Shown: positions 34,641 to 44,765 of the stretch, one piece after another | Layout of the letters: the number at the start of each line of letters is the position of its first letter | Numbering within the stretch: position 1 is the stretch's first letter | Assembly: GCA_963827655.1 (NCBI GenBank) | Contig: CAWHCF010000026.1 | Location: forward strand, 96,001 to 160,000 | DNA from: an uncultured Acidobacteriota bacterium | GTDB lineage: Bacteria > Acidobacteriota > UBA6911 | Direction: 5' to 3' | DNA: 64,000 bases | Notes under the pieces: model-generated | Seen by the model: only the letters and a program-made list of their open reading frames with translations | Told to the model about the DNA's origin: nothing | Databases searched by the model: none | Made by a program: the position numbers and the translations under genes

Positions 34641-36567
34641 CGACGAATCATTTAAACCGTATCGCGTATGTGTATATCCGGCAGTCGACCCTGGCGCAGC
34701 TGCAGCGCAATGTGGAGAGCCGGCGGTGCAAGAACGGCTGGTGGAGCGGGCGTAGGCGTTCGGCTGGTCCAAGCCGCGGATTATTGATGATGATCTTGGA
34801 TGCACTGCCAGTGGCGTCGTGGAGCGCTCTGGTTTTGAGCGGCTTCTTGCCGCGGTATGCGCGGGGGAAGTGGGAGCGATTTTTGCCTTTGAAGCGTCAC
34901 GCCTGGCACGCAATGGCCGAGAATGGCATACGCTGCTGGAACTGTGCGCAGTGGTTGACACCGTGCTCATTGATACCGAGGCGGTGTATGACCCGAAGTT
35001 CACCAATGATCGGCTGCTCTTGGGGCTGAAAGGCACGTTAAGCGAACTTGAGCTCGGGTTGTTTCGCGCGCGTTCGCATGCGGCGATCCGAGAGAAGGCC
35101 AAGCGCGGGGAATTCTATGGCCTGGTAGCTGCGGGATACCGCAAGACCAGAGATGGGCGACTTGAAAAAGAACCCGACCTGCGGGTGCAGCGGGCGCTGG
35201 AGTTCTCTTTGATAAGTTCCCACAATTTGGCAGCGCACGGCAGCTCGTGCGCTGGCTCCGGGAGGAGCAGGTCAAGATCCCCCGAAAAGAACAGAGCACG
35301 GACGACAGCCCAATCTGTTGGCGCCTTCCCACCCAGGCAGCATTGACCTCGATGCGTCTTAGAGCACGGCCGTAAACGCGTCGTGGTCAGTGGTTGTTCC
35401 GACCCGGGCGAATGGGAGATAATCCTTCGGGACCATCACCCCGGCTACATCAGCTGGGAGCAATATGAGCGAAACGTGGAGATGCTCAGACAGAATGTCA
35501 ACATGAAGGGTTACATGAGGGCTGGCGGAATCCGGGGAGGAGCCTCGGTGTTTGCGGGGATACTGCGCTGTGAACAGTGTTGGCGTAAGGTGGTGCACTA
35601 TAGTGGCGTGCACTCGCGAAGTATCGCTATAGTTGCAGCACCAACTGTCGCAATGACGATGGCAAGCGCTGCCTGTCGTTTTCTGCCAATGCACTGGAGC
35701 GCACCCTGCTTGGGCAATTGCTGGAGACCGTGAGTCCTCTGGGGGTGGAAGCGGCGTTGAAGGCGGCGGAGATTTTGGCTGTCCAAGGTCATACCTTGAG
35801 AGAGCAGCGGGAACTTGAGCTTACACAAGCGCGCTACGAGAGTGAGCGGGCGCGGCAACAATATAACTCTGTAGATCCGGCGAACCGTCTTGTCGCAAGC
35901 GAACTGGAGCGGCGCTGGGATGAGGCGCTGCTGAGAGTTGCTTGTCTTGAAGAAGAATTACAAGCCGTTGTTGTTGAAGACGCCGTGTCCGCTGAGGAGC
36001 GTCAAGCGCTGCTGGCGCTCGGCCAAGATCTTGCCGGCGTATGGGACAACCCAGCCACCTCACCTGAAGTAAAGAAGAGAATTGCCAGGACACTGGTAAA
36101 AGAAATCGTGCTCTTCGACGAAGCACACAGCATTAAGGCCATCGTGCATTGGCAAGGCGGAGACCACACAAAAGTGCAGGTGCCGAGGCTCACCTATCGA
36201 GAGAGTGCCTCGCCTACCGACACCGATACAGTGGAGATCATTCGTGCGCTTGCCCGACAGATGGCGGATCGCTTCATCGCTCGGGTGCTTAATCGACTTA
36301 AGATACCTACGGCTAAAGGGTACACATGGAATGAACGAGTGTGTGCCATCCGGCACGGGTATCACATTGCTGTATACCAGGATGGGTGAACGGGAGGGCC
36401 GCGGTGACCTCAATATGCTTGAAGCAGCTAAGGAACTGGGAGTTGAGCGGCGCGTGATCAGCGAGCTGGTACGGTTTCGGCTGCCTGCTCACGGCGGTAA
36501 CATTTCGTCTCGCAAAAATGAAATTGATCGACCCGAAACTTTTTCGCGCAAGGGAAAGGTGTCTTAA
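34628..36567 (+). pseudogene. Large serine recombinase, frameshifted and partly deleted
   Basis: AYVYIRQST, EASRLARN, DRLLLGLKG, HHPGYISWE, C-x2-C, DPANRLVASELERRW, C-terminal HTH. Confidence 0.85.
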
Positions 36568-38720: not shown

Positions 38721-40600
38721 TCATTCCTGCCGCAGCGCGATCATAGGATCGACGCTGGTCGCGCGGCGAGCGGGCAAATAACTGGCGAACCCCGCGATGG
38801 CGATCAGCAGGACCGATACAAGAAGGAAGGTCAGCGCGTCAGTGGGCTCGATGCCGAACAGCAGCGTGGAAAGAAGACGGGTGAGCGCGAACGCCCCGGC
38901 CAGCCCCAGAAGCACGCCGGCGCAGGCAAGCTTGAATCCATGCCCCACGACCAGGCGCCCGATATCCGCGCCCCCGGCTCCGAGCGCGATGCGGATACCC
39001 ATCTCATGCGTGCGCTGAGTCACCGAGTACGACATAACGCCATAGACGCCGATGGCGGCGAGAACCAGCGCGACGGCGGCAAAGATCGCGAGGAGCAGCA
39101 TGGGGAAGCGGCGCGGAATCATGGCTCGCTCAGCGTAATGGTCCATCGTGCGGACGTTGAACACGGGCAGATCCGCGTCCATGCGCTGGATCTCGCGCCG
39201 AACCGCCTGAGCCAGCGTCTGGGGATCGGACACGGCGGTACGAATCACCAGGGGCGCAGAACCCGGAGCCACCTGCCTGCTTGCTTTATAGGCCTCGGGC
39301 CTGAATGGAACGTCAGGCCGCGGCGTTTGGCGTCGCCCACTACGCCGATCACACTCATCCAGGGACCTTTACCTTCGGGCCAATCCTGCTTGACCCGCTT
39401 GCCGAGCGGATCTTCGGCCGGCCAGTTCTGCCGGGCGAAGGTCTGGTTCACGATGACTACCGGATTGGCGCCCAGCGTATCGCGCTCATCGAAGTCCCGG
39501 CCTTTGAGGATCGGAATTCCCATGGCGCGGAAATAGGCCGGCTGGGCTGTGTTGAAATCGGCATTCGGTAAGTCCTCACGCCGCGGGCTAGGACGCCCAT
39601 CGATCAGGTAGATCGAGTCCCAGCAACCGCTGGTCAGCGGCAGACAGTTAACCGCGCTGGCGGTCTCGACACCGGGAAGAGCGCGGATTTGCTCGAGAAG
39701 GGTTTTGAAGAACAAGACTCGCTGGTCATCCTTCGGATAGCGTGTTCCAGGCAGATTCACCGGCATCGTGAGCACCCGCTCGGTGCGAAAACCCGGGTTG
39801 ACCTTTTGAAGTTCTATCAGACTGCGGATGGTGAGTCCCGCGCCAATCAGCAGCATGAGGGCAAGCGCAATCTCGACGGTAACCAGAACGTTTCGCAAAG
39901 AGCGGCGACGAAAGCCGGAGACCGAAGTCCTGCCGCCTTCTTTGAGGTCGTCCACCAGATCGCCGCGCGTGGTGTGAAACGCGGGCGCGAGGCCGAAAAT
40001 CACGGCGGTCACGAGGGAGATCCCGAGAGTGAAGCCGAGCACGCCCGCGTTGATTCGAATGTCGGCCACGCGGCGAATGTTTTCCGGAATGAGGGCCATC
40101 AGCGAACGCACGCCCCAATCCGCCAGCACCAGGCCCACAGATGCGCCGATCAGCGCGAGCAGCACGCTTTCGGTAAGAATCTGTCGAATGAAGCGCCTGC
40201 GGTCCGCGCCCAGGGCCATGCGAATTGCGACCTCCTTCCGGCGGCCCGCCGCATGCGCAAGCATGAGGTTCGCGACGTTGGCGCAGGCGATCAACAACAC
40301 GAAACCCACAGCTCCGAGCAACACCAGCAGCGGCGTGGACCCGGTCAATCGCTCGCTGAGCGTGACAATGCGGATTCCGTTGCCGCTATTGGATTCCGGA
40401 TATTCTTTTTCCAGGCGCGCGGCGATGGCCTCCATGTCGGCTCGGGCGCGGTCGATCGTGACGCCCGGCTTGATCCGCGCCACAACATTAATTCCGGGGT
40501 GGTTGCCCCGGGGACCCATGTCGTCGCCATTGAGGCCGATGGGAGCAAACATTTCGCTTTCGTAAAAAAATCGAAAGTTGGGCGGAAGCCCAATCCGATC
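38721..40600 (-). pseudogene. ADOP/MacB-like duplicated permease, 5'-truncated and frameshifted
   Basis: LLIACANVANL, EVAIRMALGA, THEMGIRIALGA, PARRATSVDPMIALR. Confidence 0.88.
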
Positions 40601-40981
40601 ACGCTGCGGACAAGACAGTGATGGGCGCGGCTGCGCAAGCTCCTATGAGGTCACGGAGCACGGTCGGATCGAACGCCGCACCATAGGACCGGCAGTCGAC
40701 GGATCAACGCAAAGACACTCGTGAGAGGTCAATCCCAAACAGGAGTCAAACTGCCGGTCGCATGGCACAGCGATACGATCTTATTATCACTGTCCCATCA
40801 AGTGCCGTTGCGGCTGATGCTGCAGACGATCCCGAGCTCTGCCAGGGCAGTCCGGCACTGCGCGCTCGCGCACTAGGTCCCTCGGCCCGAATGATAGACG
40901 AGGCGGGCGTTTGGGTGGGATCCCAGAAGACTTTGTGGTAGGCTTTGCGGGTCCTCGGCCGCAGGAGGTGAACTGCGGCCC

Positions 40982-41263
40982 ATGGCTCACCACTCTCTGC
41001 TGCTTGCTCGCGCTCAGAACGTTCCAGCGCAGTACGGGCATTGCTGCAGGCCGGATGCGGGCGCTTGGGTTTGCGAGCTCCCCGGTGTTTATCGTGCCCG
41101 CCACCCTGAAGCCTCCATTTTCTACCAGACATTCGAGCAGCACTTCGACAGTTACGTCCGCGCCTATGAGGAGCGCTTCGAGCCCCGCTCAGGACCACTG
41201 CGCCGCGTTGTGCCTGAGAGTGTCGAGCAGTTTCTTGCCTGCGGTCGTCTCCAGGGAGGGTAA
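40982..41263 (+). pseudogene. IS91-family transposase N-terminal remnant, cut by LSR element 2
   Basis: VYRARHPEASIFYQ..HF..YEERFE..G....FLACGRLQGG, ending exactly at the element junction. Confidence 0.85.
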
Positions 41264-41306
41264 GCTGTCACGCACTAAGTATATCCTTCAGAATTCATCG
41301 CCGTAT

Positions 41307-41543
41307 GTGAAGGTAACCCGGCGGCATCATCCCCTATACAACCAGGAACTCGAAGTTCTCAATGCCGACAAGCAAACACTGGTCCTGCGTCTTGCTGACG
41401 GTTCTCCAATGAAAATGCCCCGGGCATGGACCAACGCCGACGGCGGGGCACGGGTCGAGGAGCCTTCAATCTCCTCGGTATTCACCATCGAGGCGCTTCG
41501 CGAACTGATCGCTCTGGTGGGCGCTTTTCAGAATCGCGATTGA
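41307..41543 (+). CDS. Element 2 ORF1 (DUF5372/Y4bD-like)
   Basis: VTRRHHPLYNQELEV, MPRAWTNA, IEALRELIALV; frame open back to the left junction. Confidence 0.7.
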   Translation: MKVTRRHHPLYNQELEVLNADKQTLVLRLADGSPMKMPRAWTNADGGARVEEPSISSVFTIEALRELIALVGAFQNRD

Positions 41544-41599
41544 ACTCCTGACAGCGGCTATGTACGCATGGCTCCAGAAGCCCATACGTGGAGGAGCCC

Positions 41600-41773
41600 A
41601 TGCACCGACAAAGAACATTGCCGCTGGATGGTCAGGAATCTCTGGAGGCGCTTTGGCGGCGATTTCCCGAAGAAGGCCGCCGCAAGGTCATCGCAATCTA
41701 TGCGCGTCTGCTGGCCCTGGCCGTCCACGGCGAGAGGAAAAAGGAGAAGAGCAGTGACAAACTCAAAGATTGA
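41600..41773 (+). CDS. Element 2 ORF2, small protein
   Basis: RBS GGAGGA; QRTLPL..LWRRFPEEGRRKVIAIYARL; overlaps the LSR start. Confidence 0.65.
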   Translation: MHRQRTLPLDGQESLEALWRRFPEEGRRKVIAIYARLLALAVHGERKKEKSSDKLKD

Positions 41774-44036
41774 TACCGGTACCAAGATCCGTTCCGAGCA
41801 TCTCCAACGGAAAGCTTTTGTATACATACGACAGTCTTCACTCAGGCAAGTTCGAGACCATGTCGAGGGCAGAGTGAGGCAATATCAAATGGTGGACTGG
41901 GCCGAGCGAACAGGTTGGCCCAAAGAGCGTATCGTCGTGATTGACGAAGACCAGGGCAAAAGCGCAGCCGTGGCCGAGGCCCGCATTGGATTCGGACAGT
42001 TGATCACCGCGGTGGGCCGAGGCGAGGGGGGAATCGTAATCAGCCTGGAAGTTTCCCGCCTGGCGCGCAACAGCCCGGATTGGCACCACCTGATCTACCT
42101 CAGTCGCTGGACCGATACGCTCATCACGGATGGGGAAACGATCTACGATCCCAAGTTGAGCGCCGACCGCATGGTCTTAGGGATTCGCGGGCAGGTGAGC
42201 GAGCTCGAGCTTGACCATTCGATCCAGCGCATGATCGACGCTCGCTGGAACAAAGCTCGCCGTGGTGAACTGATGACGATCCCACCCGCGGGGTACGATC
42301 TGGATGAGCTGAATGAGCTGGTTCTCACGGTCGATGAATCTGTCTCTCACGCCATCAAGACGGTGTTCGCAAAACTGGATGAGCTGGGGAGCGGGAGGCA
42401 GGTGTTTTTGTGGTGGAAGCAACAGGGGCTGAAGTATCCTGTGCGCCGGGTGGAGTTGCGCACGCATCCCGTCGTGTGGCTGGAGCCGAACTACGGCATG
42501 ATCCTGAGGACCCTGCACAATCCTATATATGCCGGAGTCTACGTCTTTGGCCGCATCGAGACCGTGCGCGAGCTCGACCAGGACAATCCCAACCGGCTTC
42601 GAGTGCGCAGGGTTCAACGGCGGAATCCATGGCCGGTGTTGATCGAAGATCATCACGCGGCTTACGTTTCCTTCAAGAAGTATTTGAAGAATCAAGAGCT
42701 GCTTGGGAACAACGCGATGATGAAGGCACGTGCTACCAACAATGCCGGTGCGGCGCGCGAGGGCGAAGCCTTGCTGCAGGGCCTGGTTCGATGCGGCCGT
42801 TGTGGGCGGCCGATGACGGTCGGTTACGGCGGCAATCGTGCGGGCAAGTCCAGCCGAACGATGCAATATCGCTGTCAGGAATCCCGCAGCCGTGTGGGAG
42901 AGAGGGGTTGCCAAACGATTGGAGGGAAGCGCATCGATGCGGCGGTGGTGCAGGCGTTTTTGGAGGCAACGGCTTCGGCAGGGATCGCAGCCGTGGGCCA
43001 GATGCAAGAGCAGTTGCGGGCTGAGAACGAAGCCAGCGAGCGTGCTTGGGCGCTGCAAGTAGAAAAGGCCGAATACGAGGCGAAGCGAGCCGAGAGGCAA
43101 TTCCACGCCGCTGAGCCCGAGAATCGGCTTGTGGCTAGAGAGCTGGAGAGGAGATGGAACGAACGGCTGACGGAACTGGAAGTCGTACGACAAAAGGCGC
43201 AGGCGGCGCACCGGAAAATTCTCTGGCTCAACGAGGAGGAAATGGCGCGAGCCAAACAGTTGGCGGAGAACCTCCAAGAGGTCTGGCGCAGTGAGACGAC
43301 GGCCAATCGGGACCGCAAACGTCTGCTCCGCTGCCTCATCGAAGAGGTCCAGCTCACTACGGAAGAGACACGTTATCTGGTGCGCATTATCTGGAAGGGT
43401 GGAGCGGTCACCGAGCGAGAGGTGGTTCGACACCCGGCGGGCAGCGCTTTTACCAAGACATCAGAGGATGACATCGAGCTGGTACGGCAACTGGCTCGAG
43501 AGTTTGAAGACGCTCAGATTGCCCGAATTTTGAATAAGCAAGGGCGGCGCACCGGATTCGGTAATCCTTTCACGCAGGCGAATGTGCTGTCGCTGCGCGG
43601 CCGCCACCAGATCCCAAAGTGTCGAGCTTATCGAGCCAAAGATCCGAAAGAGGGCCCGTTCACCGCCGACGAAGCTGCGGCGGAACTCGGCGTAGCCATG
43701 AGCACGATTCACCGCTGGCTGCGCGAAGGGGTTTTAGCCGGAGAGCAAATGACGCCCGGAGCGCCATGGAGAATCGTGCTCAGTGATGACGTGCGCCGTA
43801 AGCTTTCCGGTGGCAATGCTCCGGAAGGTTGGGCAGGTCTGACCGAAGCCGCCAGAAGACTGGGCTTGTCCAAATCCCACGTTGTCTATCTAATCAAGAC
43901 CGGCCGGCTTGAAGCGATGCAGGTTGCTTTCCGCACTCGGCGAAGTTGGAGGATCAACCTGGACTCAGCCACGTGTGGCCGGCAAGCGGGGATGTTTGAC
44001 GAGAAGGGAAATGATGATTCCAAGGACGCGCAGTAG
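41754..44036 (+). CDS. Large serine recombinase with recombinase, Zn-ribbon and coiled-coil domains plus two C-terminal HTH modules
   Basis: AFVYIRQSS, EVSRLARN, NPIYAG, CGRCG..YRC, ENRLVARELERRW, EAAAELGV and EAARRLGL HTHs. Confidence 0.93.
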   Translation: MTNSKIDTGTKIRSEHLQRKAFVYIRQSSLRQVRDHVEGRVRQYQMVDWAERTGWPKERIVVIDEDQGKSAAVAEARIGFGQLITAVGRGEGGIVISLEVSRLARNSPDWHHLIYLSRWTDTLITDGETIYDPKLSADRMVLGIRGQVSELELDHSIQRMIDARWNKARRGELMTIPPAGYDLDELNELVLTVDESVSHAIKTVFAKLDELGSGRQVFLWWKQQGLKYPVRRVELRTHPVVWLEPNYGMILRTLHNPIYAGVYVFGRIETVRELDQDNPNRLRVRRVQRRNPWPVLIEDHHAAYVSFKKYLKNQELLGNNAMMKARATNNAGAAREGEALLQGLVRCGRCGRPMTVGYGGNRAGKSSRTMQYRCQESRSRVGERGCQTIGGKRIDAAVVQAFLEATASAGIAAVGQMQEQLRAENEASERAWALQVEKAEYEAKRAERQFHAAEPENRLVARELERRWNERLTELEVVRQKAQAAHRKILWLNEEEMARAKQLAENLQEVWRSETTANRDRKRLLRCLIEEVQLTTEETRYLVRIIWKGGAVTEREVVRHPAGSAFTKTSEDDIELVRQLAREFEDAQIARILNKQGRRTGFGNPFTQANVLSLRGRHQIPKCRAYRAKDPKEGPFTADEAAAELGVAMSTIHRWLREGVLAGEQMTPGAPWRIVLSDDVRRKLSGGNAPEGWAGLTEAARRLGLSKSHVVYLIKTGRLEAMQVAFRTRRSWRINLDSATCGRQAGMFDEKGNDDSKDAQ

Positions 44037-44499
44037 GGTTGCCGCCGAAGGTCAAAGCAGGGCGGTGATCGGAGAAACACCTGTGGGCATGGCGCAGGAT
44101 ATTGTGAGCAGTTACGAGCGTCGGCTGGAAAAAACCACTCGATAAGGCTCTGAAAGTAGACAGGCGATTAGAGGCGATGCAGCCGAAGCCAGCCTTGGGA
44201 AACAGAGCGAAGCAACATTGGAAGACACCTTGTTGTCCGGCAGTTTGCGCCAGCCGATTTATCTGGGCATCGAGATTGCGATCCTAAAAGGGTATGCTCA
44301 ATTCCAGCGAGGTCACCGTGAGCAGGCAAACTCGACGTTACCTATTTGGTCAAAACTTTGTGGTGCGAATGAACTCGGAAACCAAACCACCTTGCAAAAC
44401 AGAAGAATCAATGTGAATGCAGGCGCTTGCAGCCGGCAAGTGGAGAGATTTTACCAAATGACAAACACCAATATCAGGGAGGCGTAGTATGCACGGGAC

Positions 44500-44650
44500 A
44501 ACGGCTTCGCCCGCGAACGTTGCCCTCCGTCAGCCAGTAGGTGCCCACGGTCAACGCCGGGAACGAGAACGCTCCGTCCCGGGTGTTCATATCGGTTCGG
44601 GTGAAGCCGGCGTCCTGGTTCAGCACGGTAACCTTAGCCGGCGGGCATCG
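44500..44650 (-). pseudogene. Fragment of a TonB-receptor N-terminal domain
   Basis: AKVTVLNQDAGFTR....DGAFSFPALTVGTY. Confidence 0.6.
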
Positions 44651-44765
44651 AGGGCGCCAGTCGCATCCACCACGATGCCTCCCCGGCCAAATCAAGGGTG
44701 AACTGTCCGAGACAAGAAGAAGCTTGGTCGTCTTCCTTTCAGGAGGCTCCCTAATACCCTAGGTT

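What the first reader, a model, noticed from the sequence alone, without database searches (positions are those of the whole stretch)
41257..44039. Minimal three-gene serine-recombinase element whose excised circle would join the recombinase stop in frame to ORF1
Seen: AGGGT occurs at both ends (41257-41261 and 44035-44039), and the right copy overlaps the recombinase stop (CAG TAG GGT). At the left end the ORF1 frame is open to the junction (GAG GGT AAG CTG TCA...), with only an RBS-less internal GTG. Both cores lie in the same codon phase, so a circle would read ...GCG CAG TAG GGT AAG CTG...VKVTRRHHPL. That gives a closed ring LSR-ORF1-ORF2-LSR in which one amber codon separates the recombinase from ORF1. 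Established: large serine recombinases excise circles through a short core and usually need a directionality factor. I recall a similar gene set in the y4bA-D/y4pH-K repeat of Rhizobium NGR234, with uncharacterised small genes. Inference: ORF1 and ORF2 are directionality or targeting factors switched on only after circularisation, by read-through or coupling. The phase match has a 1-in-3 chance of arising at random.
Basis: partly seen in the sequence, partly recalled or inferred. Interest (0 to 1): 0.85.

Follow-up and report, generated by a model that had tools for sequence, protein, structure and literature searches.

The report
Recombinase element with circle-completed gene
A small mobile element driven by a serine recombinase sits inside another transposon's gene, and its first gene gets a ribosome site and start codon only when the element's two ends join into a circle, so the element could sense whether it is integrated or free.

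Summary
The element runs from 41260 to 44502, flanked by a GG core on each side (41258-59 and 44503-04). It sits in an IS91-type transposase gene at the codons for CGRLQG|GF. Empty-site contigs from soil metagenomes break exactly at 41259. The right AGGGT at the recombinase stop is internal, and the 5-mer is no more frequent than chance.

ORF1 (DUF5372) has no conserved start in the integrated state. A GGGAGG ribosome site and an ATG (44489-91) lie 14 nt inside the right end. In the joined circle this ATG is in frame with ORF1. The same holds in 17 of 17 relatives with defined ends, across three deep lineages with different cores (GG, AA, probably TT). In short-form relatives the recombinase stop abuts or overlaps this ATG. 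There is coupling, not amber read-through.

A controlled co-fold places ORF1 on the zinc ribbon and coiled-coil base of the recombinase, where directionality factors act. ORF1 is probably a circle-specific directionality switch. Which direction it favours is unknown.

The parts
40911..41257 (+). Left flank: N-terminal fragment of an IS91-type transposase gene (ORF 40982-41263, ..FLACGRLQGG, stopped by TAA 41261-63 just inside the element)
   Evidence: tblastn to full-length own-genome paralogues that carry Zn_Tnp_IS91 + Y2_Tnp. A paralogous copy on C38 is 97% identical over 158 nt.
41258..41259 (+). GG crossover core, left copy (attL)
   Evidence: Flank homology and empty-site contigs end at 41259. 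The same 2-bp duplication is seen in relatives.
41260..41306 (+). Left arm of the attachment site. It also encodes the ORF1 leader (G-K-L-S-R-T-K-Y-I-L-Q-N...).
   Evidence: Imperfect inverted repeat with the right arm over about 21 bp. Third-codon-position bias in the ORF1 frame: 101 against 47 and 47.
41259..41543 (+). ORF1 body (DUF5372-type, 94 codons plus stop). No conserved start in the integrated state.
   Evidence: Pfam DUF5372 at 23.9 bits, just under the cut-off of 25. 9 of 30 close homologues carry PF17342. 143 cluster representatives found. AF2 model pLDDT 82.
41307..41309 (+).
   Evidence: The homologous codon is GTG in 5 of 13 loci, GTA in 3 and GTC in 5.
41600..41773 (+). ORF2, 57 aa, with GGAGGAG 4 nt upstream. 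Its end overlaps the recombinase start.
   Evidence: 12 close homologues, 11 of them exactly 57 aa. DUF5771 reaches only 14.4 bits.
41754..44036 (+). Large serine recombinase, 760 aa, with two C-terminal excisionase-type HTH domains
   Evidence: Pfam Resolvase, Recombinase, Zn_ribbon_recom and HTH_17 x2. NCBIfam 'excise' domain x2.
44030..44053 (+). Degenerate internal copy of the right end, without an ATG.
   Evidence: Resembles the true end and the ends of short-form relatives.
44054..44476 (+). 3' non-coding module of the long form. Conserved inverted boxes at 44345-44350 (TTTGGT) and 44453-44458 (ACCAAA).
   Evidence: Alignment with L046-L052. Frame-breaking indels in near-identical metagenome contigs (table 4). 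Box positions.
44477..44482 (+). GGGAGG ribosome-binding site, 6 nt before the ATG
   Evidence: A purine box at the same distance is present in all 11 right ends found.
44489..44502 (+). ATG plus 11 nt: the first four codons and two bases of the fifth codon of ORF1 (M-H-G-T-T). This lies within the right arm of the attachment site.
44503..44504 (+). GG crossover core, right copy (attR)
44505..44700 (+). Right flank: decayed continuation of the IS91-type gene (with the core GG it reads GFARERC, then loses frame)
   Evidence: In run X2 the same right end is followed, after 44514, by an intact continuation.

Best explanation
Window 41258-44504 is one copy of a site-specific mobile element. Its gene order is ORF1 body, ORF2, then a large serine recombinase, followed here by a non-coding 3' module.

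The element is integrated through a 2-bp GG core into the codons for the conserved C-G-x-L-x-x-G|F motif of an IS91-type transposase gene, in the same orientation as that gene.

ORF1 is a split gene. Its ribosome site, ATG and first 4 2/3 codons lie at the extreme right end of the element. The rest lies at the extreme left end. Excision (attL x attR) joins the two parts across the attachment site, so full-length ORF1 of about 99 aa can be made only from the circle, or from a head-to-tail tandem.

ORF1 has a disordered leader encoded by the left arm, an SH3/KOW-like barrel and a C-terminal helix. It is predicted to bind the recombinase at the zinc ribbon and the base of the coiled coil, the region through which directionality factors act. 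It therefore most likely changes which site pairs the recombinase will join.

My inference is that ORF2, which is translationally coupled to the recombinase, allows excision. ORF1, made only once the circle exists, then biases the enzyme towards integration. The sign of this effect is the least secure step.

Shown: the ends, the target, the split reading frame and its conservation. Predicted: ORF1 binds the recombinase. Inferred: its role in directionality.
For: Ends:
- Contigs from three runs (X1, X3, X6) match the left flank up to 41259 and then continue as an intact IS91-type gene. This is an empty site. Its depth is 38-54, against about 5 for the element.
- In X2 the right end is followed, after 44514, by an intact continuation of the same gene.
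- The window's own right flank resumes with GFARERC at 44503.
- In relatives the left flank ends at about residue 94 of the transposase and the right flank resumes at about residue 92. Pfam finds Zn_Tnp_IS91 + Y2_Tnp.

Split gene:
- 11 of the 12 loci that hold the recombinase 3' end have a purine box, 5-7 nt, ATG, 11 nt, then the core (L045 is the miss).
- The distance from the core to the conserved V codon is 49 nt, or 64 nt in L051. It equals 1 mod 3 in all 11 left ends anchored.
- The joined frame is open and runs into ORF1 in 8 of 8 GG-core loci that have both ends.
- It also does so in 8 of 8 AA-core elements: Mesorhizobium x5 and R. jaguaris, Bradyrhizobium and Pseudomonas.
- It does so in the NGR234 repeat as well.
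- The V codon is not a start in 8 of 13 loci. L042, L036, L037 and the NGR234 copy show no ATG between the left end and the conserved core of the domain.
- Single-difference codon pairs in the leader fall on codon positions 1, 2 and 3 at 47, 47 and 101, with 96 of 195 synonymous. The other two frames give 60 of 175 and 34 of 169.
- The ATG is specific to the right arm, and the ribosome site lies outside the roughly 21-bp arm symmetry.

Binding:
- The co-fold scores 0.66 against a best control of 0.00. That mark was reached by 58 of 80 solved complexes and 2 of 110 mismatched pairs. The three runs share at least 77% of contacts and the partner's pLDDT is at least 66.
- The interface uses recombinase residues 346-352, 405-418 and 489-553. 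On ORF1 it uses residues 22-26, 45-51 and 69-93.
- An RDF repositions an integrase subdomain (PMC11722253, abstract). gp3 binds phiC31 integrase via the zinc domain (PMC5814800, title in the listing).
Against: - No circle or tandem junction was seen. The only runs laid were assembled contigs, which cannot show rare forms.
- No promoter was identified.
- Some lineages have a possible internal start. The window subgroup has GTG 41307, the 75% group has TTG and GTG codons, and Mesorhizobium has an internal ATG. Some database homologues begin at the V position with M.
- In 4 loci the flank happens to supply an in-frame ATG right at the junction. ORF1 may therefore not be fully silent when integrated.
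- The ATG lies inside the recombinase-binding arm, so part of its conservation could be a DNA-level constraint. The leader's amino-acid conservation is confounded in the same way.
- A classical directionality factor made only after excision would block re-integration. The proposed sign rests on logic, not on data.
- The co-fold used my own alignments, so its calibration holds only roughly.
- The codon-pair counts use related sequences and are not independent.
Confidence: 0.72

Rival explanations
1. ORF1 is an ordinary gene, translated in the integrated state from an internal or flank-supplied start (GTG 41307 here). Under this view the right-end ATG and purine box are conserved only because they belong to the recombinase-binding arm, and the frame continuity has no function.
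For: GTG at 41307 in the window subgroup. The Pfam DUF5372 profile is covered from that codon on (positions 2-75 of 78). The modelled leader is disordered and lies outside the predicted interface. Some homologues are called from the V position, and some flanks supply an ATG. The ATG lies in the arm.
Against: The homologous codon is GTA or GTC in 8 of 13 loci. There is no ATG before the domain core in L042, L036, L037 or NGR234. The frame is kept in 17 of 17 elements despite a 15-nt indel and unrelated arm sequences with three different cores. The leader has a third-position bias. The ribosome site lies beyond the arm symmetry.
Confidence: 0.15
2. The crossover is at AGGGT (41257-61 and 44035-39), the circle joins the recombinase stop in frame to ORF1, and ORF1 is made by amber read-through.
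For: The two AGGGT copies and the open ORF1 frame exist.
Against: The 5-mer occurs at chance frequency. Homology with relatives continues for 465 bp past 44039, up to a conserved end at 44502. The target gene resumes at 44503, not at 44040. The empty-site contigs fit a GG core at 41258-59.
Confidence: 0.02
3. ORF1 is a classical recombination directionality factor that promotes attL x attR and blocks integration. Making it from the circle gives positive feedback on other integrated copies, or delays re-integration.
For: The predicted binding site is the one used by known factors. The protein is small, as several known factors are (recalled).
Against: The first excision would have no factor available. 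A non-replicating circle that blocks its own integration would be lost. ORF2 is the protein always coupled to the recombinase.
Confidence: 0.25
4. The window copy is an inert relic in a decayed mobile-element graveyard, so the split-gene layout has no current role here.
For: The right flank of the target gene has lost its frame. A degraded recombinase paralogue lies 5 kb upstream. Only one copy exists in this 90%-complete genome.
Against: All three ORFs, both arms, the ribosome site and the ATG are intact. Near-identical sequence is held by 20 soil or sediment runs from 18 studies. In one of them it lies next to an intact target gene.
Confidence: 0.2

Closest known systems
Tn4451/Tn4453 with TnpX (Clostridium). 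Lyras & Rood 2000: seen only as a reference-list title in PMC13023037; the content is recalled.
   Same: A large serine recombinase excises a non-replicating circle. Joining the ends creates an expression signal that exists only in the circle.
   Different: There the joint forms a promoter for the recombinase itself. Here the joint completes the coding sequence of an accessory protein (ribosome site, ATG and about 5 codons). This element carries no cargo. Its targets are conserved codons of other mobile elements. Two small accessory genes are present.
y4bA-D / y4pH-K repeat of Sinorhizobium fredii NGR234 plasmid pNGR234a
   Same: Two 100% identical 3325-bp copies. The recombinase is 37% identical to the window's. 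The left-end ORF is a clear DUF5372 (89.8 bits), open to the end and without a start. The ATG at the right end overlaps the recombinase stop and is in frame across the joint.
   Different: It has an extra HTH_28 gene between ORF1 and the recombinase. Its ends and core differ (probably TT, inferred from two copies only). Its targets are not IS91. No function is described in the library searched.
Recombination directionality factors of serine integrases: phiC31 gp3 and the SPbeta RDF (PMC5814800, title in the listing; PMC11722253, abstract)
   Same: A small protein predicted to bind the zinc ribbon and coiled-coil base of the recombinase.
   Different: No sequence or specific fold relation was found; the only fold matches were generic SH3/KOW barrels at Z about 6. 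Its synthesis depends on the state of the attachment site. The sign of its effect is unknown.
Integrase genes split by their own attachment site: SSV1-type fusellovirus integrases and Myxococcus phage Mx8 intP (recalled; no call)
   Same: The attachment site lies inside a coding sequence, so integration and excision change which protein can be made.
   Different: Those are tyrosine recombinases, and the split gene is the integrase itself. Here the accessory gene is split, and only its translation start is separated from the body.
State-dependent promoter switching of int in ICEKp1 (PMC13023037, start of the abstract in the listing and passages)
   Same: Expression of a recombination gene differs between the integrated and excised states, using the flanking gene's transcription when integrated.
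   Different: A tyrosine-integrase conjugative element with control at the promoter level. No coding sequence is split.

Membership tests
Large serine recombinases | N-terminal resolvase catalytic domain with the active-site serine | tested here: met
   Pfam Resolvase at residues 21-172, E 5e-14. R26, Q27 and S28 are invariant in the 16-row alignment.
Large serine recombinases | Recombinase domain plus a zinc ribbon domain carrying an inserted coiled coil | tested here: met
   Pfam Recombinase at 197-318 and Zn_ribbon_recom at 340-401. Invariant cysteines C347, C350, C374 and C386. The coiled coil was inferred from the sequence at about 405-540 and was not modelled on its own.
Large serine recombinases | Recombination at a 2-bp core, leaving that dinucleotide on both sides of the insert | tested here: met
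   GG on both sides in the window and in 6 relatives; TG on both sides at one other insertion site (L047 and L054, which share flanks). AA in the rhizobial family. Cleavage chemistry was not tested.
Pfam DUF5372 (PF17342) | Score at or above the curated cut-off of 25 bits | tested here: inconclusive
   The window ORF1 scores 23.9 bits, E 4.5e-5, covering profile positions 2-75 of 78. 9 of 30 close homologues carry PF17342. The NGR234 counterpart scores 89.8 bits and the Pseudomonas one 25.7 bits.
Pfam DUF5771 (PF19075), for ORF2 | Score at or above the curated cut-off of 26.2 bits | tested here: not met
   14.4 bits, E 0.045. ORF2 is therefore not filed under this family.
Recombination directionality factor | Binds the cognate integrase | tested here: inconclusive
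   Prediction only. Co-fold score 0.66 against a best control of 0.00. The mark was reached by 58 of 80 solved complexes and 2 of 110 mismatched pairs. At least 77% of contacts are shared between runs, and the partner's pLDDT is at least 66.
Recombination directionality factor | Switches the allowed site pairs (enables attL x attR and inhibits attP x attB) | not testable with these tools
   Needs recombination assays.
Tn4451-type serine-recombinase transposons | Circular intermediate whose joint creates an expression signal | tested here: inconclusive
   The sequence predicts a joint-dependent translation start. No circle was observed and no joint promoter was found.

The most novel reading that the evidence does not exclude
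DUF5372 proteins are a new class of state-sensing directionality switch. The attachment site splits the gene, so the protein exists only while the element is a circle. It then docks on the coiled-coil base of the recombinase and flips the ORF2-recombinase complex from excision to integration. Integration destroys the gene again. The whole clade is hyperparasitic: each lineage homes to DNA encoding a conserved motif of another mobile element's enzyme. The motifs seen are IS91 transposase CG.L..GF, group II intron reverse transcriptase DIKGFFDNI, and an LDIDDTFD motif in DDE_Tnp_1_4 transposase genes. The element uses these genes as multi-copy, horizontally travelling landing pads and borrows their transcription.
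Probability: 0.35. Interest if true: 0.88.

Novelty: new variant of a known kind. Interest (0 to 1): 0.78.

Why it matters
Large serine recombinases are leading tools for inserting large DNA, and control of their direction is the main practical limit. This clade appears to hard-wire direction control into the topology of the element. An accessory protein that docks on the known control region of the enzyme is encoded across the attachment site, so recombination itself switches the gene on and off. That gives a directly testable, compact natural circuit of three small parts. It also gives a function-level lead for an uncharacterised Pfam family (DUF5372) and for ORF2.

The clade also shows a tidy case of mobile elements that specialise in invading the catalytic-motif codons of other mobile elements: IS91, group II introns and DDE_Tnp_1_4 transposases. 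This bears on how elements find safe, widespread targets.

I found nothing on the family in the searched library. That library lacks most subscription journals, and supplements were closed.

Tried and rejected
1. Rfam on 41100-44700 at E <= 1 gave 0 matches.

2. Consensus folding of the last 200 nt or so of the 3' module gave a covariation term of only -0.3 kcal/mol. I do not claim an RNA. The two inverted boxes remain unexplained.

3. The sigma-70 and terminator scan of 41150-44650 found 1 promoter-like site, on the minus strand, against 1.1 expected, and 2 terminator-like sites against 3.5 expected. It gives no promoter for ORF1 or ORF2.

4. Fold searches with the ORF1 model gave only generic SH3/KOW barrels. 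Foldseek had no match at E <= 0.001. The wide VIA-align search gave a best Z of 6.1, within the range typical of unrelated matches. No function follows from them.

5. The C38 paralogue of the left flank first looked like an empty site. It diverges about 6 nt to the right of the core, and its downstream DNA is not homologous to the window's right flank (no blastn hit better than E 2.6). It is neither an empty site nor a second copy.

6. Laying contigs of X1, X2, X3 and X6 showed no go-back joint (circle) and no skip joint across the element. Contigs cannot show rare forms, so this is no evidence against excision.

7. L045's right end was not found; its 3' side runs into IS3-like sequence (my reading). 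L044's right junction is irregular, with GC where the core is expected. It was still counted among the 8 of 8 because its joined frame is open. L053 and L056 could not be anchored by the Cys-Gly codon motif and were dropped from the left-end count. L057 was mis-anchored by 15 nt and corrected by hand.

8. Literature. 'DUF5372' found 0 papers. 'y4bA' had 0 occurrences (that search was otherwise wasted on the word 'recombinase'). DUF5771, PF17342, PF19075, y4bD, y4pK and y4bB gave 2 unrelated papers. Two concept searches found nothing on this family. PMC4181065 was checked for recombinase insertions in intron remnants and had none.

9. The first 22 kb of pNGR234a showed no y4 gene names. The repeat was then found by protein search.

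No supplement was requested. Supplements of the recombinase-survey papers (for example PMC10083194, seen only in a listing) might list members of this clade.

Full report
WHAT IS IN THE WINDOW

The region holds three co-oriented ORFs:
- ORF1. Its frame is open from the flank to the stop at 41541-43. The only internal start-type codon is GTG 41307. Pfam DUF5372 scores 23.9 bits, just under the cut-off of 25, and covers profile positions 2-75 of 78.
- ORF2 (41600-41773, 57 aa). GGAGGAG lies 4 nt upstream. DUF5771 reaches only 14.4 bits.
- A 760-aa large serine recombinase (GTG 41754 to stop 44034-36). It has Resolvase, Recombinase and Zn_ribbon_recom domains and two C-terminal excisionase-type HTH domains. 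Its start overlaps the end of ORF2.

The 5-mer occurs 98 times in the window against 92 +/- 9 in shuffles, and three more + strand copies lie inside the element. The repeat carries no information.

TRUE ENDS AND TARGET

The 350 bp to the left (40911-41257) encode the N-terminus of an IS91-type transposase, ending ..FLACGRLQGG. Full-length own-genome paralogues continue with GF(A/L)R..C and carry Zn_Tnp_IS91 + Y2_Tnp.

A protein scan of public contigs found one genome relative (L044, 60% identical) and 16 metagenome relatives (59-92% identical). In these the element sits inside an IS91-type gene in the same orientation. The left flank ends at about residue 94 of the transposase and the right flank resumes at about residue 92.

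Aligning the window's 3' side with L046-L052 shows that homology continues for 465 bp beyond the recombinase stop. It ends at a conserved sequence finishing at 44502. After that the window reads GG CTT CGC CCG C.. = GFARERC. The insert is therefore 41260-44502, with GG on each side (41258-59 and 44503-04).

Independent support comes from public soil metagenomes. Twenty runs from 18 studies hold near-identical parts of the element. Contigs of four runs were laid on the window:
- In X1, X3 and X6 a contig matches the left flank up to 41259 and then continues as an uninterrupted IS91-type gene. This is the empty site. Its depth is 38-54, against about 5 for the element.
- In X2 the right end is followed, after 44514, by an intact continuation of that gene.

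It lies in a degenerate copy of the right end that has lost its ATG (44030-44053).

Relatives come in two forms:
- A short form (L051, L057, L044), in which the recombinase stop lies 4-7 nt before the right-end ATG.
- A long form (the window, L046 and the 75% group), with a 220-455-bp non-coding module inserted between the stop and the ATG.

THE SPLIT GENE

Eleven of the 12 loci that hold the recombinase 3' end share one right-end layout. It is a purine box (GGAGG, GGGAGG or AAGGAG), 5-7 nt, ATG, 11 nt, then the core. L045, whose 3' side is rearranged, is the miss. In the window these features are GGGAGG at 44477-82 and ATG at 44489-91.

At the left end, the distance from the core to the conserved V codon of ORF1 is 49 nt, or 64 nt in L051. 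It equals 1 mod 3 in all 11 left ends that could be anchored. The ATG is therefore in frame with ORF1 across the joined ends.

Translating the join in silico gives an uninterrupted ORF1 of 86-135 aa in 8 of 8 loci that have both ends. In the window it is 99 aa. M-H-G-T-T comes from the right end, and G-K-L-S-R-T-K-Y.. comes from the left.

The V codon that looked like a start is GTG in only 5 of 13 loci; it is GTA in 3 and GTC in 5.

The 16-codon leader shows a coding signature in the ORF1 frame. Single-difference codon pairs fall on positions 1, 2 and 3 at 47, 47 and 101, and 96 of 195 are synonymous. The other two frames give 60 of 175 and 34 of 169. These pairs are not independent.

The two arms are imperfect inverted repeats over about 21 bp. 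In 6 of the 7 loci compared, the base that makes the ATG differs from its mirror position in the left arm. The purine box lies outside the symmetric part.

THE SAME DESIGN IN DISTANT LINEAGES

The recombinase is about 40% identical to a clade abundant on rhizobial plasmids (534 plasmid records).

A 2741-bp Mesorhizobium element with the same three genes has ends defined by many empty-site group II introns and by several different insertion sites. Its core is AA. ATG plus 11 nt precede the core, and the join is in frame in 6 of 6 copies. One of these is the R. jaguaris copy, which lacks the internal ATG.

Bradyrhizobium and Pseudomonas members behave the same way (2 of 2). They have no start codon between the left end and the domain core. 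In Bradyrhizobium the recombinase stop overlaps the ATG.

Its left-end ORF is a clear DUF5372 (89.8 bits), open to the very end and without a start. An ATG overlapping the recombinase stop is in frame across the joint. Its core, TT, is my inference from two copies only.

Across the three families the joined frame holds in 17 of 17 elements examined.

TARGETS

The GG family uses the sense strand of IS91-type genes (Zn_Tnp_IS91 + Y2_Tnp). One other insertion site (the same flanks in L047, L049, L053 and L054) is a look-alike non-IS91 site with a TG core.

The AA family inserts antisense into two kinds of gene:
- Group II intron reverse transcriptase genes, between ..DIKGL and DNISH (RVT_1 and GIIM).
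- DDE_Tnp_1_4 transposase genes, between ..LDIDDT and DAVHGG.

These elements specialise in the conserved-motif codons of other mobile elements.

WHAT ORF1 DOES

ORF1 has 30 close homologues and 143 cluster representatives at 50% identity. The leader motif is widely conserved. Gene callers start these proteins at arbitrary flank codons or at the V position.

The AF2 model (pLDDT 82) shows a disordered leader (residues 1-15), a five-strand SH3/KOW-like barrel and a C-terminal helix. Fold searches give only generic barrels.

A controlled co-fold of the whole recombinase with ORF1 scored 0.66 against a best control of 0.00. That mark was reached by 58 of 80 solved complexes and 2 of 110 mismatched pairs. 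The runs share at least 77% of contacts and the partner's pLDDT is at least 66. My own alignments were used, so the calibration holds only roughly.

The interface joins two surfaces. On ORF1 they are the HHPL motif (residues 22-26) and the C-terminal helix (69-93). On the recombinase they are the zinc ribbon (346-352) and the two helices at the base of the coiled coil (405-418 and 489-553). This is the region through which known directionality factors work (PMC5814800, title in the listing; PMC11722253, abstract).

The prediction supports binding. It does not show it.

MECHANISM PROPOSED

In the integrated state, transcription entering from the IS91 gene or from an unmapped internal promoter can express ORF2 and the recombinase, which have their own ribosome sites. 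ORF1 has no start. The incoming transposase frame is stopped by TAA at 41261-63.

After excision the joint supplies the ribosome site and the ATG. In short forms the ATG abuts or overlaps the recombinase stop, so ORF1 becomes the last, coupled gene of a permuted ORF2-recombinase-ORF1 operon. In the window's long form the 3' module separates them and may carry its own control elements (the conserved inverted boxes at 44345 and 44453).

ORF1 then binds the recombinase and changes its site-pair preference. Re-integration splits the gene again.

I favour ORF1 as an integration-phase factor, with ORF2 as the excision factor. A classical factor made only after excision would strand a non-replicating circle. 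That assignment is inference.

WHAT WEAKENS THE CASE

- No circle was seen; only assembled contigs could be laid.
- No promoter was found.
- Some lineages have plausible internal or flank-supplied starts.
- The ATG and the leader overlap a protein-binding arm, so sequence conservation alone is ambiguous.

COMPARISON WITH KNOWN SYSTEMS, AND NOVELTY

The nearest characterised logic is Tn4451/Tn4453, where the circle joint forms a promoter for TnpX. I saw that reference only as a title; the content is recalled. Other state-dependent cases are ICEKp1 int and the SSV1 and Mx8 integrase genes split by their own attachment sites (recalled).

New here are three things: a translation start separated from an accessory gene by the attachment site, its conservation across a large uncharacterised clade, and the targeting of other elements' catalytic-motif codons.

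Searches of the held library found nothing on DUF5372, DUF5771, the y4b/y4p genes or this design. Subscription journals and supplements were not covered.

VERDICT

This is a new variant of a known kind, of high interest.

Noticed in passing
window 34729-36356 (G000:C26:130729-132356): A second, degraded serine-recombinase gene, 27-42% identical to the element's in three pieces, with TGA, TAG and TAA stops inside. It lies about 5 kb upstream, which suggests a mobile-element graveyard.
   Followed up: no
L002/L004 (G000:C38:185170-185445, minus strand): A paralogous copy of the IS91-type N-terminal fragment, 97% DNA identity over the last 158 nt. It diverges about 6 nt to the right of the GG core. 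An AAA-ATPase-like ORF and a second ATPase-like ORF follow. It is not an empty site and not this element. What cut it at almost the same place is unknown.
   Followed up: partly
window 41265 (contigs of runs X3 and X6): Contigs match the flank, core and first 6 nt of the element, then continue with a different left-end sequence. A distinct related element seems to occupy the same IS91 site in other soil genomes.
   Followed up: no
L047, L049, L053, L054: The 75%-identity element sits in a non-IS91 site that resembles the IS91 target. It has TG rather than GG on both sides, which raises the question of how a mismatched core was resolved.
   Followed up: partly
window 44054-44476; boxes at 44345-44350 and 44453-44458: The long-form 3' module is non-coding; near-identical contigs carry frame-breaking indels. 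It keeps two inverted boxes (TTTGGTCAA.. and ..ACCAAAT) about 105 bp apart in all six aligned members. There is no Rfam match and no covariation support. They may be protein-binding or promoter elements.
   Followed up: partly
L035-L043 (rhizobial plasmids): The AA-core family inserts antisense into group II intron reverse transcriptase genes (between DIKGL and DNISH) and into DDE_Tnp_1_4 transposase genes (between LDIDDT and DAVHGG). Up to 23 matching places are found on a single Mesorhizobium plasmid.
   Followed up: partly
L050:4977-5324: A second recombinase N-terminus (52% identical) begins about 1.2 kb after the IS91-type gene that holds the first element. Two different elements of the clade lie on one 6-kb contig.
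   Followed up: no
L011-L014 (own genome: C49 twice, C19, C45): Four intact paralogous recombinases, 37-39% identical. In the two loci whose ORFs I listed (L012, L013) each has a small ORF2-like gene overlapping its start. L012 also has an HTH gene like that of the NGR234 repeat. tblastn with the two ORF1 queries found no DUF5372 there. Their ends were not examined.
   Followed up: partly
window 39245-40552 (minus strand): A 435-aa permease-like ORF that looks like only the C-terminal half of a longer transporter abuts the IS91 fragment. The N-terminal half was not seen within 5 kb. This may be a deletion or rearrangement linked to the mobile elements. The family was not checked with a tool.
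   Followed up: no
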